From contig JANNVQ010000030.1 in NCBI GenBank assembly GCA_031414535.1, positions 128,001-192,000 on the forward strand: a stretch of DNA of 64,000 nt, in the 5' to 3' direction. This document shows positions 15,001-21,000 of the stretch, piece after piece. Source of the DNA: Gemmatimonas sp. (lineage in GTDB: Bacteria > Gemmatimonadota > Gemmatimonadetes > Gemmatimonadales > Gemmatimonadaceae). Within the stretch, counting starts at the first letter, position 1. Every line of letters starts with the position of its first letter. The position numbers are program-made.

Positions 15001-18000
15001 AGCCTCAGGACCAAGTGGTGCGACACTCCGTGTCTTGGAACGCGGAATGAGTGCCCTGAAGCACGTGCGGCGCAAGCAGATAATCTGCCTGCGCCGCAAA
15101 CGTCTTCCCTCTGCGAGGCTGACACGTCACGCCGCCTCCGGCAGCTAGGCCTTCGCTTTCTTCACAGCCTCGGTAAGCACTGGGAGAATCGTCAGCACAT
15201 CGCCGACAATCCCATAGTCCGCCAACTTGAAGATTGGCGCGTCCTTGTCCTTGTTGATTGCCACGATGGTCTTGGACGTGCGCATGCCGGCCAAGTGCTG
15301 AATCGCGCCAGAGATGCCGCAGGCCACATACAAATCCGGCGAGACGAGCCGGCCCGTCTGACCGATCTGATCCGAGTGCGGACGCCAGCCGTCGTCAGTC
15401 ACCGCGCGCGTGGCACCAACCGCCGCGTTGCCAAATGCCGCCGCGAGATCTTCAACAAGCTTGAAGTTGGCCGCTTCCTTGAGACCACGGCCACCGGAAA
15501 TGATGACGGGTGCCTCACCGAGGTCGAGCTTGGCCGTGTTACCAACGGCCGTCTCGGTGACCTTCACGCGCGATGCGCTAGGATCGCCACTCGGAGCGAG
15601 CGGCTGCACGCTGCCCGCCTTCGCGTTCTCCTTGGGGAGGAAGGCACCCGGACGCACGCTCACGACCGCCGGTGACGCCGTGAGCGTCACAGTCTGAATC
15701 ACCTTGCCCGTGTAGCCTGGGTGCGTGGCCGTGATGCCGTTGCCACTCACGCTGAGTGTCGTGACATCGGACGCCAGCGGCACACCAAGCTTGGCAGCTA
15801 CGCGCGGCGCGATGTCCTTACCCGACGCGCTCGCGGTGCACACAAAACCCGTGTAGCCGGACTTGATCTTCTCGGCGAGCGTGGCGCTCACCGCTTCTGG
15901 ATTGTTGTGCGTGAACGCGGCGTGCTCCACCACAAACACCACATCAGCGCCGTGCGCGCCGAGCGAGGCGGCGTGCGCAGCCATGCCCGAGGCGCCGAAG
16001 ATCATCGCGTGGACTTCCCCGCCCTTCGCGTCAGCAATCACACGCGCCGCGGCAACAGCCTCGAGTCCAGCACGACGCAGCTCACCACCGCGCGACTCAG
16101 CAAATGCAAGAATATTCGACATTAGAGAACCTTCGCCTCTTCCTTGAGGAGACGGACGAGCTCAGGCACCGCATCCGGGCCCTCGCCGATGATTTTGCCA
16201 GCCGCACGCTCCGGCGGCAGCGCCATCGCGTCCAACGTGAGTCGCTCAGCGGGCACCTGCGCCGGCTTGGACTCGAGCGGCTTCTTCTTGGCCGCCATGA
16301 TGCCCTTCAACGACGGGTAGCGCGGCCGTGCGATGCCTTCGTCAATCGTGACCACAGCTGGCAGCGCGCACTCGAGCAGTTCGTAGGCGCCTTCGAGTTC
16401 GCGACGCATCTTGGCCGTGCGGCCATCGAACTCCAACTTCGAAATCGCCGTCACGACTGGTAGACCGAGCTGCTCGGCGACCATCGTGCCCACCGCGCCG
16501 TGCGCCGTATCAATGCTCATACGACCAAACATGATGATGTCGTAGTTACCAGTCTTGAGCTCGGCGGCCAGCGCAGTCGCTACGGCGTGCGAGTCCACGG
16601 AGGCGCCGTCGTGCTTCAGTTGCACGGCCTTGTGCGCACCCATGGACATCGCCTTCCGGAGCGTCTCCTGAACTGCATCGCCACCGAGCGAGATGACGGT
16701 CACCTCGCCGGCACCGGCCTTCTCGGTAATCTGGATGGCGGCCTCAACGGCGTAACCGTCGAAGTCAGACATATCGAATTTGAGCCCCGTTTCATCCACG
16801 GCCTTGCCGGAGGGGGCGATTTTGAAGCGGACGTCCATGTCGGGGACGCGCTTGAGGCATACTGCAATATTCACAGGGTATTCTCGGCAGAAAGTACGGC
16901 GTGAAAGATAACAGGACGGATGGCGGATGACGGAAGCTACGGGCATCCGTCTTCCGTCATCCGTCCTGTCACATCAACGGTGCCAGTTCCGTCTCCGTCA
17001 GCCTGTCCCTATACCGCATCAGCACCAGCAGGGAGACCGCTGCGACACCCAGTCCGGCCCAGGCGAGCGCCTCTGGTCCGAGACCAGTCCAGAGCAGGTA
17101 CAGGCTGCCGAGGGCCAGGGTGAGCTGGCGAGCGGTCTCGAGCGTGGCGGCCCACTTGGCGCTTTCGAATACGCCGCCGACGCCCGCCAGGGCCACGGCG
17201 ATGAAGAAAGCGGCCGCGGCACTCTGCGCGAGCGGGAGCGCATTGGCCTGCTGCAGGAGTACGAAGGCCGCCGCGAGCGCCATCACGAACTGCGCGAAGG
17301 CGTACCACGCCAGCGGAGCCGGAAGCGGCGGATCGAATTTCTCGAAGGTCTCCGCGCTCACCTCGCGCGGACGTTCGACGTTCCCGAGCTCGGCGGGCCG
17401 CCAGCTCGGACGTCCAAACACGATGCGCAGCTTGTCCGCCCAGCGTGAGGCCCGCCAGGCGTCGCGTGCGATTTGTACAAAGACGTGCACGTTGGCCCAG
17501 AGCGGATTCCAGCTTTGGAGCGGCTTGGTGATGCCGTACACGGGCTCTTCTTCTTCCACCTGGAAGCTGCCGAACCAGCGGTCAAAGGTGATGAACACGC
17601 CGGCGTAGTTCTTGTCCTGGTACTTGGGATTCACGCCGTGGTGCACGCGATGATGCGATGGCGTATTCAGGATGTACTCGCCCAGCGGCGAGAGGCGCGC
17701 GATGGCGCGGGTGTGAATCCAAAACTGATAAATGAGGTTGATCGCGTTGCAGGCCACGAACATCCGCCACGGTACGCCGATGAAGGCGAGCGGCATGTAG
17801 AAGACCCAGCTCATCAGGCCGTGCAGGGCGCTCTGCCTGAGCGCCACCGGCAGGTTGTACTCCTCGCTCGAATGGTGCACCACGTGGCCCGCCCAGAGGA
17901 TGTTCACCTCGTGCGCGTAGCGATGGCTCCAGTAGTAGCAGAAGTCCACGAGCACGAACACCAGCGCCCAGCTGAGCAGCGCGGGCAGGTCCACACCGAA

Positions 18001-21000
18001 GTACGGGAAGATGTCGGCAGCAAACATCGGCGCGCGCTCGGGCCAGGACGGGAAGCCCGTCACGAACAGCTGTACCGACCAGTGCTCCGCCACCCAGATG
18101 AAGACTCCGATGGTGAGCAGCTTGGTGAAGATGCCGGAGAGCTGACTGAGGATTCCGCAGCTCAAATCACTCAGCGAGTCGTTCAAGCGCAACACGCGGC
18201 GCCCCGTCACGCGGCTCCAGAGGAGCTCCGCGCCAATGAGGAGAAAAAACAGCGGAATGGAAGCCTGGATGATGCCCATTGCCCGAGAATAGTAGATTAG
18301 TCGCGTGCCCAATACCAATCAGACGTTTTCTCGCCCCCTCGCCTGCATCACCGGCGCCTCGGCCGGGCTCGGCAAGGTCTTCGCCAAACAATTGGCGGAG
18401 CGCGGCTTTGACCTCCTGCTCGTGGCCCGCGACGTAGACCGGCTGACTGCTCTCGCCGACGAGCTTTCACTGCAGCACGGCATCGCGGCCACGGCGCATC
18501 AGGCCGACCTCTCGCGCGACGAGCCGATGCGAGCGCTCGCCGAGAAGCTGGCCAAGGAAGAGCGCCTGATGGTGCTGGTGAACAACGCCGGCTTCGGGAC
18601 CAAGGGAAAGCTCGCCACTCGCCCCGTGGGTGAGCAGGCGACGATGCTCGAGCTGCACGTGATGGCGCCGATGCTGCTCACGCGCGCGGTTGTACCAAAG
18701 ATGATTGAGCGCCGCGAAGGCTTCGTGATCACCGTAGCCTCAGTCGCCAGCTTCACCGCCAGCATGGGCAACGTGAACTACTGCGCCACCAAGGCGTATC
18801 AGCGCGTTTTTATGGAAGGGCTCGCGATGGAACTCGCTGGCACCGGTGTGCGCGTGCAGGCGCTCTGCCCTGGATTCACGCACACCGAGTTCCACGATCG
18901 TATGCAGATTGATAAGTCCAAAGGCATTCCCGCGTGGGCCTGGCTCTCGGCGGACGAGGTCGTGCGCGACTCGCTCGAGAATGCGTTCGGGAATGGCCCG
19001 ACGGTCGTGATTCCGAACTGGAAGTACAAGATGATTGTGCTGATGCTGCGCTACATGCCGATGTGGCTGCGCGGGATGATGCAGGAGCGGTACGGGCGGG
19101 CGCGGGTCTAGGATTAGCTACCAGCCACAGCGCGGTTCGCCTTCGCCCCATCCCCGCGGTGGCACGGCTCCGACGATCATTCCGCAGCTGTACCCGGACG
19201 ACAGCATCCAGATGCTTCCGCTCCAAAACCGGTTGTTTGCCTGCTGGACGGCGAAGCGCGTGCCTTCTGGAAGACGTATTGTCAGCGAGTCAGTGCGCAT
19301 TGTGTAGGTATTGTGCTGCGCGTAGAAGGCCTCTTGTGACATTACCGTTCCGCGGATCGCCGCGCGCAGTTGACTGCGCTGCCCAGAGTCCACTGGTGAC
19401 ACTGCCCGAGGGCTGGGGCGCGGGACCACACCATTGGGCCTGGAAAATCTAAAGATCGCAACTTGCTCGAAGTCATCGGCGTCGGTGCGTACGCCGACAA
19501 CTCGATTCCCGACGAACTGCGTGGGCCGGAATCCGCCGGGCAGCGTCACCTGACCGACGGCCCGACTACCTGCATATGCAATCCAGCTTCGCATTTCTCG
19601 ATCTCTGTGTACCCACAGGAGCGATGTCTCATCGAAGAACGCACGCCGCAACTCGGGTAATGAATCGACAAGGGCACGAAGCAGTGGCGGAGCCCAATTG
19701 GGCACAACGCCTTCACCCAGGACGAGTACGCCGGCGTGCGTCCACGCCGCGTCGCCTACGGTATCGCGCAGCACGGTCAGTTGATTGCTGCCGTGCCTGA
19801 CCTCAGTCCAACGCGACTGCGATGGATCCCAGACAGCGACGGCGCTGTTCCCAAAACTTGACATCGAAATGCGGCCGTTGAACTCGCCCGGTCCGCGCCC
19901 GCGACGACCGAGCTTGGCGACACGTCTCCCTGTGGAATCGAAGAAGAGCACCGCGAACTCGCCGCCATCCGCGATGGCGAGGACGCCGTTCGGCATCAGC
20001 CGGGCGTCGGCGACGCTACCGATGAGCGAGGTGTCCACCTCAGCGTTGTCTCCAACAATCAGCACCGGACGCGCATCGAGCGGCCACACGGGTGGACGCT
20101 GGCGCTGGGCCGCAAGCGGACTGATGGTGATTGCCGAATACAGCACCAACAGCGCGGCTAGTGAACGCGAAGGGGGAAACCTCATCGACACCTCTAGTGT
20201 ATTAGTGTATCCATACACTAGATGTTCCCTACACGACGCGCAAGGGCTTGCTCAGCCCCCGAACGCGTTCATCCCCGTCACGGCCTGCCCAAGAATCAGC
20301 GAATGAATGTCGTGCGTGCCTTCATACGTGTACACGCTCTCGAGATTCGCCATGTGCCGCATGCTCGCATACTCGGCGAGCACACCGTTGCCGCCGAGCA
20401 AGCGCCGCGCCTCGCGAGCGATCTCTGTGGCGATGTTGACGTTGTTCCGCTTGGCCAGTGACACCTGCTGGGGCGTGAACGTCCCCGCGTCCTTCATGCG
20501 GCCCAGGTGCAGCGAAACCAGCTGACCTTTAGTCAGTTCGGTGAGCATGTCGGCTAGGCGCACCTGCTGGATCTGGAAGCCACCAATCGGGCGGCCAAAC
20601 ATCACACGCTCCTTGGAGTAGCTCACCGCTTCCTCGAAGCAGGCCATCGCCGCGCCAAGCGCGCCCCAAGAAATGCCGTAGCGCGCCTGCGTGAGGCACA
20701 TGAGCGGGCTCTTGAGGCCACCGCTCTTCGGCAGGATGGCATCGGCCGCGAGATGCACACCATCAAACACGAGCTCAGCGGTATCCGACGCACGCAGCGA
20801 GAGCTTGCCTTTCACCTCCTTCGATGTGAATCCCTTGGCGTCCGTGGGGACGAGGAAGCCGCGAATCGAGTTGCCGGTTTCATCGTTGTCTTCGGTCTTG
20901 GCCCACACAACGCAGACGTGCGCCTGCTTGCCGTTGGTGATCCACATCTTGCCGCCGTTCAGAATCCAGCTGCCGTCTGCCTGCTTGCGAGCACGCGTGA

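What a model noticed while it worked through the whole genome (the two positions that open the first line are those of the whole stretch)
16969..18279. Animal-type alkylglycerol monooxygenase homologue together with a tetrahydrobiopterin pathway
g01687 is a 436-aa membrane di-iron hydroxylase that is 36-38% identical over 387 residues to vertebrate alkylglycerol monooxygenase (AGMO/TMEM195), and the genome also encodes GTP cyclohydrolase I, two mouse-like 6-pyruvoyl-tetrahydropterin synthases, SDR reductases and pterin-4a-carbinolamine dehydratase. I propose that it is a true tetrahydrobiopterin-dependent ether-lipid (alkylglycerol) cleaving enzyme of bacteria. New would be the first bacterial AGMO, giving a bacterial model for this labile membrane enzyme and a route for bacterial use of ether lipids.
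Evidence so far: Swiss-Prot table: five best hits all animal AGMO, E 1e-68, residues 4-386 against 40-397 of 446; Pfam FA_hydroxylase. BH4 genes: g01382 FolE, g01381 (48.5% id to mouse PTPS) and g01674 (46.5%), g01383/g01688 SDR, g00259 PCD, g02190 phenylalanine 4-monooxygenase. Orthologues: 2 of 80 other sampled phylum genomes at E<1e-60 (82% id in the same-genus genome; call 101); a species-wide scan kept 80 loci: about 60 Gemmatimonadota MAGs (55-85% id, incl. Longimicrobium and a G. phototrophica MAG) and, at 40-45%, saprophytic Leptospira, Cytophagales/Bacteroidetes and three Pseudomonas isolates. Paper search showed AGMO treated as an animal enzyme; bacterial AGMO-like enzymes are mentioned only for pr [...]
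(Added by a program. Inside this text positions count along the whole contig: contig position 128,001 is position 1 of the stretch shown here. "Call 12" and the like, gene names such as g00115 and contig names such as C1 are that model's own, and its searches are not shown. The text may have been shortened before it was handed on; [...] marks where a part breaks off. The agent that wrote the report below was given it as the finding of a first reader that could run no searches.)

Follow-up and report, generated by a model that had tools for sequence, protein, structure and literature searches.

The report
Bacterial relative of ether-lipid-cleaving enzyme
This gene encodes a close bacterial relative of the animal enzyme that cuts ether-linked lipids and probably does the same job, but it is one of a very large, untested bacterial family, and its proposed tie to the genome's biopterin genes is not borne out.

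Summary
The ORF is real (436 aa, minus strand). It keeps 14 of 15 residues essential in human AGMO (W243 is F), the pterin-contact Glu137 and the exact animal consensus around it. It is not special to this genome: 1,576 clusters score E<=1e-30, and animal AGMO nests among them. JGI already labels such proteins AGMO, a 2026 paper counts 239 marine MAGs with them (function untested), and this scan noted the family before on other DNA. The best support for ether-lipid substrates is the link to lysoplasmalogenase YhhN: fused in Comamonadaceae, adjacent in two other lineages, co-occurring in this family (11 of 14). This genome itself lacks YhhN. The BH4 link is weak. The PTPS-II/folE operon occurs in 169 of 201 genomes of the order against 27 with the gene, no sepiapterin reductase was identified, queC/queE lack another QueD, and Glu137 does not track PTPS-II (11 of 26 vs 11 of 24). 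Best reading: a tetrahydropterin-using O-alkyl ether monooxygenase for scavenged lipids (about 0.45). Side finding: three same-genus genomes with this gene also encode AGPS plus a FAR-acyltransferase, one with PEDS1 too.

The parts
16969..18279 (-). AGMO-family membrane di-iron oxygenase, 436 aa (P0001). His boxes at 119/123, 132/135/136, 189, 210/213/214; E124 = human E137; F232 = human W243
   Evidence: model pLDDT 95.6; the core's best fold match is the Scs7p hydroxylase domain, Z 6.5
18305..19111 (+). Divergent SDR (mycolate-reductase-like, below cut-off), 25 nt from the AGMO start. Possibly a lipid-carbonyl reductase; not shown to be a sepiapterin reductase
   Evidence: directly divergent in 25 of 54 related loci with enough upstream DNA
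16911..16969 (.). 27-bp inverted repeat right after the stop codon; a member of a genome-wide palindromic (REP-like) repeat family
   Evidence: z -7.4; 271 BLAST pieces in the genome
12890..16946 (-). etfB, etfA and a CCG/4Fe-4S oxidoreductase downstream on the same strand
   Evidence: etfB is the next gene in 22 of 48 related loci with downstream DNA
20252..21601 (-). Acyl-CoA dehydrogenase upstream on the same strand
   Evidence: present in 23 of 41 related loci with more than 3 kb upstream
5723..6220 (+). Second PTPS (CxxxxxHGH, PTPS-II motif) at the head of a molybdenum-cofactor gene cluster, 11 kb from the AGMO gene (ORF from first possible start). The PTPS-folE-SDR operon lies outside the window, G000:C29:18957-20732

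Best explanation
An integral-membrane di-iron monooxygenase that works like animal AGMO. It hydroxylates the alkyl carbon next to the ether oxygen of 1-O-alkylglycerols or lyso-alkyl phospholipids, using O2 and a tetrahydropterin bound near E124. The hemiacetal falls apart to a fatty aldehyde and a glycerol derivative, and the aldehyde is oxidised and fed to beta-oxidation. In this genome the substrate would be scavenged, since no ether-lipid synthesis genes were found. The pterin is probably made by the PTPS-folE-SDR operon that also serves PhhA, but it need not be BH4. Shown: family, catalytic residues, gene associations. Inferred: substrate (about 0.6), pterin as reductant (about 0.6), BH4 specifically (about 0.4), aldehyde fate (not tested).
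For: 14 of 15 residues essential in human AGMO are identical, plus E137 (positions from PMC3304488 and PMC7911779; mapped). The animal consensus H-E-[ILV]-N-I-[FILM]-W-A-[AG]-H is matched exactly, against 3 of 150 distant representatives. None of the genome's four other PF04116 proteins has Q162 or Q197. The long C-terminal part aligns with eukaryotic AGMO. Eukaryotic AGMO forms a supported clade inside this bacterial family. YhhN lysoplasmalogenase, which releases fatty aldehyde and whose activity is proven for bacterial members (PMC9052158), is fused to family members (P0203; YhhN found in 78 of 80 loci fetched with it; ORF over 520 aa in 77 of 80). It abuts the gene in 13 of 80 diverse loci, downstream in 10 Bacteroidota and upstream in 3 Lysobacterales. 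In this genome's family 11 of 14 YhhN genomes carry the gene against 25 of 93 overall, at unlinked sites (kin are not independent). All three same-genus genomes with AGPS plus FAR-acyltransferase carry it. PhhA and PCD show that the genome needs and recycles a tetrahydropterin. Animal AGMO also runs on tetrahydroneopterin and methylpterins (PMC3617469).
Against: No bacterial member has been shown to cleave ethers; the one characterised bacterial AGMO-like enzyme, PRUB680, cyclises prodigiosin (seen only through citing papers). W243, whose Ala mutant is dead, is F here (86 of 120 close relatives, 8 of 150 distant ones); H189, Q191, Q166 and E203 also differ. This genome and the six others of its genus in the sample have no YhhN, another family has YhhN in 12 of 16 genomes and the gene in 0 of 16, and YhhN is absent from 80 of 80 loci nearest to this protein and 80 of 80 Woeseiaceae-centred loci. 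E137 is kept in only 82 of 150 representatives and does not track PTPS-II across 50 chosen genomes (11 of 26 vs 11 of 24). No PTPS, folE or phhA lies in any of 320 flanking regions. Only 9 of 27 gene-bearing genomes of the order have PhhA. AGPS occurs in only 2 of 201 genomes of the order, one of them without the gene.
Confidence: 0.45

Rival explanations
1. A membrane di-iron hydroxylase or desaturase of another hydrophobic substrate (an ester- or amide-linked lipid, a pigment or other metabolite). The AGMO-like residues then reflect shared ancestry, as with PRUB680.
For: The only characterised bacterial AGMO-like enzyme acts on prodigiosin; PMC13543475 found most AGMO-annotated MAG genes in one variable clade with PRUB680. 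The family is very large and variable at E137. This genome has no YhhN and no ether-lipid synthesis genes. There is a weak match to the ornithine-lipid hydroxylase OlsE model (59 bits vs 475).
Against: Repeated fusion, adjacency and co-occurrence with YhhN in four lineages; near-complete set of AGMO-essential residues and a full-length AGMO layout.
Confidence: 0.33
2. It acts on ether lipids but not by the animal route. Electrons come from a protein chain (for example the neighbouring ETF and Fe-S oxidoreductase) instead of a pterin, or it desaturates the alkyl ether to a vinyl ether that a YhhN-type hydrolase then cleaves.
For: etfB is the next gene in 22 of 48 related loci. E137 is replaced by R, Q, T or V in 55 of 150 representatives, and several YhhN-adjacent Bacteroidota members have Q there. 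There is no link to pterin genes. An NADPH-dependent alkylglycerol cleavage activity is reported in Leishmania, which has no close AGMO sequence (PMC3617469).
Against: A strong palindrome separates the gene from etfB, and ETF with an acyl-CoA dehydrogenase is an ordinary pairing (recalled). This protein keeps E137 and the exact animal motif. The desaturase route needs YhhN, which this genome lacks.
Confidence: 0.17
3. A weakened or inactive enzyme, because the family-wide Trp (human W243) is Phe.
For: W243A abolishes human activity; W is kept in 141 of 150 distant representatives.
Against: F is fixed in 86 of 120 close relatives and in a Leptospira member, all nine His are invariant in 120 of 120, changes are mostly synonymous, and W243A also lowered expression.
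Confidence: 0.03

Closest known systems
Animal alkylglycerol monooxygenase (AGMO/TMEM195, EC 1.14.16.5)
   Same: Nine His, Q162, D233, N235, Y236, D244, E137 and the consensus around it; also E152, Y174, Q197, E212 and, by spacing and alignment, Y338 and R396. Similar length and C-terminal helical part; 39% identity to bird and beetle AGMO regions.
   Different: W243 is F; H189, Q191, Q166 and E203 differ; PF24858 is below cut-off; bacterial host with no identified sepiapterin reductase; activity untested. Not closer to animal AGMO than many other bacterial proteins.
PRUB680, prodigiosin cyclase of Pseudoalteromonas rubra (de Rond et al. 2017; seen only through citing papers)
   Same: Bacterial AGMO-like membrane di-iron enzyme of PF04116.
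   Different: Makes a C-C ring in a pigment.
Bacterial AGMO-like/YhhN fusions and gene pairs (Comamonadaceae, Bacteroidota, Lysobacterales); noted earlier in this scan, not found in print in my searches
   Same: Same family (P0203 is 40% identical over 349 aa); most keep E137.
   Different: This protein stands alone and its genome has no YhhN.
Bacterial BH4 pathway FolE - PTPS-II - sepiapterin reductase (Synechococcus PCC 7942; PMC5041015)
   Same: PTPS with the CxxxxxHGH motif directly upstream of folE, followed by an SDR.
   Different: The SDR matches no sepiapterin reductase model or structure. Both PTPS have the type-II motif although queC/queE need a QueD. The operon is housekeeping in the order and unlinked to the oxygenase.
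Yeast Scs7p sphingolipid alpha-hydroxylase (4ZR0/4ZR1)
   Same: Best solved-fold match of the catalytic core, Z 6.5, rmsd 3.8 over 137 residues.
   Different: 12-19% identity; a shared fold says nothing about substrate.

Membership tests
AGMO (EC 1.14.16.5) | Fatty-acid-hydroxylase domain with nine essential His | tested here: met
   9 of 9; invariant in 120 of 120 close relatives
AGMO (EC 1.14.16.5) | Further essential residues Q162, D233, N235, Y236, D244 | tested here: met
   Q149, D222, N224, Y225, D233
AGMO (EC 1.14.16.5) | Essential W243 | tested here: not met
   F232, a conservative change fixed in 86 of 120 close relatives; the effect of W-to-F is unknown
AGMO (EC 1.14.16.5) | Pterin-contact E137 in H-E-[ILV]-N-I-[FILM]-W-A-[AG]-H | tested here: met
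   Exact match with E124; the residue is not diagnostic across bacteria
AGMO (EC 1.14.16.5) | AGMO C-terminal domain PF24858 | tested here: inconclusive
   18.1 bits vs cut-off 28.3, at the expected place; chytrid and Physarum members score alike, the beetle 58.9
AGMO (EC 1.14.16.5) | Orthology with eukaryotic AGMO | tested here: inconclusive
   Eukaryotes form a supported clade inside the bacterial family; this protein is not its sister, and the backbone is poorly resolved (quick tree, 162 rows, 3 short rows dropped)
AGMO (EC 1.14.16.5) | Cleaves the O-alkyl ether bond | not testable with these tools
   Indirect only: YhhN association
AGMO (EC 1.14.16.5) | Strict tetrahydropterin requirement | not testable with these tools
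   Genomic proxies gave no link
Bacterial BH4 pathway | GTP cyclohydrolase I (FolE) | tested here: met
   Over NCBIfam cut-offs
Bacterial BH4 pathway | PTPS-II motif CxxxxxHGH | tested here: met
   Both PTPS; but they are the genome's only two PF01242 proteins and queC/queE are present, so one probably acts as QueD
Bacterial BH4 pathway | Sepiapterin reductase | tested here: inconclusive
   An SDR follows folE, but TIGR01500 reaches at best 53 of 206 bits and no sepiapterin reductase structure is matched

The most novel reading that the evidence does not exclude
This protein is a working pterin-dependent O-alkyl ether monooxygenase, and the thousands of bacterial relatives among which animal AGMO nests form a widespread aerobic route for bacteria to break ether lipids, paired with YhhN for vinyl ethers. 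Some members of this very genus would run a whole animal-style ether-lipid cycle: synthesis by FAR-acyltransferase, AGPS and PEDS1, and breakdown by AGMO. A cultured relative 82% identical (Pseudogemmatithrix spongiicola, P0019) would be a tractable model for an enzyme that has resisted purification and has no solved structure.
Probability: 0.4. Interest if true: 0.78.

Novelty: new member of a known kind. Interest (0 to 1): 0.46.

Why it matters
[quoted passage not shown] A bacterial member with the essential residues would make structure and pterin chemistry accessible, and would name an enzyme for aerobic bacterial turnover of ether lipids. The value lies in the family and in the test, not in this genome: homologues are already auto-annotated, in print, and noted earlier in this scan.

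Tried and rejected
PDB by sequence: 0 matches with the protein, only chance rows with a profile. Full-length fold searches gave no significant match or only helical-bundle matches to residues 319-429; the core alone found Scs7p. Physical linkage to pterin genes: none in 320 loci, two of which repeat a contig. A FolM-like SDR lies about 4 kb upstream in 10 of 80 Comamonadaceae loci, recognised only from a recalled N-terminal motif and taken as background gene order. E137 as a marker of BH4 supply: no association with PTPS-II (p 1.0), with PhhA (13 of 26 vs 7 of 24, p 0.16) or with either (21 of 26 vs 15 of 24, p 0.21), in 50 of 80 loci chosen by me to balance E and non-E; most are incomplete MAGs. 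Either SDR as sepiapterin reductase: not supported. PTPS as a FolB bypass for folate: FolB and FolK were both not found in this 98%-complete genome, so left open. Ether-lipid synthesis in this genome: no PF09989, no FAR domain at E<=1e-12, no AGPS, FAR-acyltransferase or PEDS1 orthologue by tblastn with the relatives' proteins; the PF10520 search had no ringing control. Sigma-70 promoter scan: none. No RNA holder listed. My first residue mapping was off by one after position 203 and was corrected. The de Rond paper is not held. Not in print, as far as searches reach: a tested bacterial AGMO, or the AGMO-YhhN fusion; most subscription papers are outside this library.
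Full report
Observation. Window 16969-18279 (minus strand) is an intact 436-aa ORF with a PF04116 domain, at least six hydrophobic segments and a confident all-helical model, pLDDT 95.6. 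The catalytic core's best solved-fold match is yeast Scs7p, Z 6.5. Differences from five close loci are mostly at third codon positions. Close relatives are Gemmatimonadota proteins; an 82%-identical one is from a cultured species (P0019).

Residue test. I took the human AGMO mutagenesis positions from PMC3304488 (parts 2-4 of 5 read) and PMC7911779 (passages). I mapped them by spacing and checked the mapping against beetle, bird, chytrid and Physarum proteins returned by the tools; the human sequence was not fetched. All nine His, Q162, D233, N235, Y236 and D244 are identical; W243 is F. E137, which sets the BH4 Km, is E124, within an exact match to the published animal consensus. That consensus is met by 57 of 120 close and 3 of 150 distant relatives. 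Of the 12 residues whose loss only lowers activity, seven are identical (Y338 and R396 by spacing), D384 is E, and Q166, H189, Q191 and E203 differ. As a control, none of the genome's four other PF04116 proteins has Q162 or Q197.

How special is it? Not very. An exhaustive search gave 1,576 clusters (50% identity) at E<=1e-30. Loci come from Spirochaetota, Bacteroidota, Pseudomonadota, Myxococcota, Acidobacteriota and Planctomycetota. In a quick tree of the core (162 rows, three short rows dropped, backbone poorly resolved) the eukaryotic proteins form one supported clade inside the bacterial family, away from this protein. It ranks 12th, 20th and 28th of 147 presumed-bacterial rows in similarity to three eukaryotic AGMOs. 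JGI names many homologues 'alkylglycerol monooxygenase'. PMC13543475 (passages) reports 239 biofilm MAGs with such genes and states that AGMO is not known to be functional in bacteria. The one characterised bacterial AGMO-like enzyme, PRUB680, cyclises prodigiosin (seen only through PMC6667630, PMC7484904 and PMC13543475). This scan has noted the family at least six times on other DNA.

The pterin genes. PTPS-folE-SDR form an operon on another contig, a second PTPS sits 11 kb upstream in a molybdenum-cofactor cluster, and PhhA and PCD exist. Both PTPS carry the PTPS-II signature of PMC5041015 (passages) and resemble mammalian PTPS. A biopterin-type cofactor is therefore plausible. Three things weaken the link to this enzyme. 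First, in 201 genomes of the order the PTPS is found in 169, PhhA in 92, QueC in 157 and the oxygenase in 27; 26 of the 27 have the PTPS, little above the 84% background, and 69 genomes have the PTPS with neither PhhA nor the oxygenase (three unpublished genomes enter these counts only as tallies). Second, this genome has queC and a queE-like gene but no other PF01242 protein, so one PTPS probably serves queuosine, and neither SDR scores as a sepiapterin reductase. Third, no PTPS, folE or phhA lies in 320 flanking regions, and among 50 diverse genomes PTPS-II was found in 11 of 26 with E137 and 11 of 24 without. This lowers 'BH4-dependent' more than 'pterin-dependent', since animal AGMO also uses tetrahydroneopterin and methylpterins (PMC3617469, passages).

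The substrate. The strongest hint came from elsewhere in the family. A 595-aa member is fused to YhhN, a lysoplasmalogenase with proven activity in bacteria (PMC9052158, passages). YhhN was found in 78 of 80 loci fetched with that fusion, mostly Comamonadaceae. In 13 of 80 diverse loci it abuts the gene, downstream in ten Bacteroidota and upstream in three Lysobacterales. In this genome's own family, 11 of 14 genomes with YhhN also carry the oxygenase, against 25 of 93 overall, at unlinked sites (Fisher p 2e-5, overstated because kin are not independent). Against this: the genome and six congeners lack YhhN, another family has YhhN in 12 of 16 genomes without the oxygenase, and 160 loci nearest to this protein or to a Woeseiaceae member show none. 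I found the fusion before reading the earlier notes that describe it; those notes are not independent support.

Ether-lipid synthesis. None was found in this genome. However, three of nine genus genomes carry adjacent genes for AGPS (E 5e-157 to the mammalian enzyme) and a FAR-acyltransferase fusion. One of them (G051) also has a PF10520 PEDS1-like gene directly upstream, beside a dnaE 70% identical to this genome's. All three carry the oxygenase, but so do 7 of the 9. AGPS is rare in the order: 2 of 201, one without the oxygenase. Gemmatimonadota AGPS, FAR and PEDS1 rows already stand in the supplements of PMC13012113 (passages, section 10, 12 of 15 supplementary files searched).

Neighbourhood. 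A divergent SDR starts 25 nt away and is adjacent in 25 of 54 related loci; etfB follows in 22 of 48; an acyl-CoA dehydrogenase lies upstream in 23 of 41 (these come from 62 loci that include one labelled Burkholderiaceae and one unlabelled). This fits lipid catabolism loosely and may be conserved gene order only. A genome-wide palindromic repeat separates the gene from etfB.

Mechanism and odds. Most likely the enzyme hydroxylates C1 of an O-alkyl chain with O2 and a tetrahydropterin, releasing a fatty aldehyde from scavenged ether lipids (0.45). Rivals: another hydrophobic substrate (0.33), ether lipids with a non-pterin reductant or through a vinyl ether (0.17), inactive (0.03). By sequence it works like AGMO. 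Membership cannot be filed: W243 is not met, and activity and cofactor are untested.

Verdict. This is a new member of a known but biochemically untested kind. It is a good test candidate because of its residue set and a cultured close relative, but it is not the first or a uniquely animal-like bacterial homologue, and the BH4 pairing is background. Other papers seen: PMC9131029 and PMC7827237 (passages), PMC4423366 (term search without hits); the rest only as search listings.

Noticed in passing
L341:7849-12702 (G051), L342:640-4719 (G256), L343:6162-10241 (G255): Same-genus genomes carry an animal/myxobacterial-type ether-lipid synthesis operon: AGPS plus FAR-acyltransferase, in G051 preceded by a PEDS1/CarF-like gene, i.e. 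a candidate aerobic plasmalogen pathway. All three also have the AGMO-like gene; this genome lacks the operon.
   Followed up: partly
G000:C38:85161-86546, G000:C29:18957-19370, window 5723-6220: queC and a queE-like gene are present, but the only two PF01242 proteins both carry the PTPS-II motif, so a CxxxxxHGH protein probably acts as QueD. QueC is in 157 of 201 genomes of the order.
   Followed up: partly
G000 whole genome: Neither FolB nor FolK was found in this 98%-complete genome although folE is present; the folate source is unexplained.
   Followed up: no
window 16911-16969: A roughly 60-nt palindrome with many copies across the genome (271 BLAST pieces), REP-like.
   Followed up: partly
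P0272, P0275: Chytrid fungi encode AGMO-clade proteins; P0272 holds two AGMO-like units. The reviews I read list AGMO only from animals.
   Followed up: no
P0171, P0273, P0176: AGMO-like domains in one chain with alpha/beta-hydrolase or esterase domains, which could supply lyso-lipid substrates; may also be read-through gene calls.
   Followed up: no
window 19118-20218 and 25971-26576: Two ORFs (366 and 201 aa) with no Pfam or NCBIfam match; the first lies between the SDR and the acyl-CoA dehydrogenase.
   Followed up: no
L035, L144: Record labels (Burkholderiaceae; Sphingobacterium) disagree with the sequence, which is 83% identical to this protein or of Comamonadaceae type: probable binning errors.
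   Followed up: no
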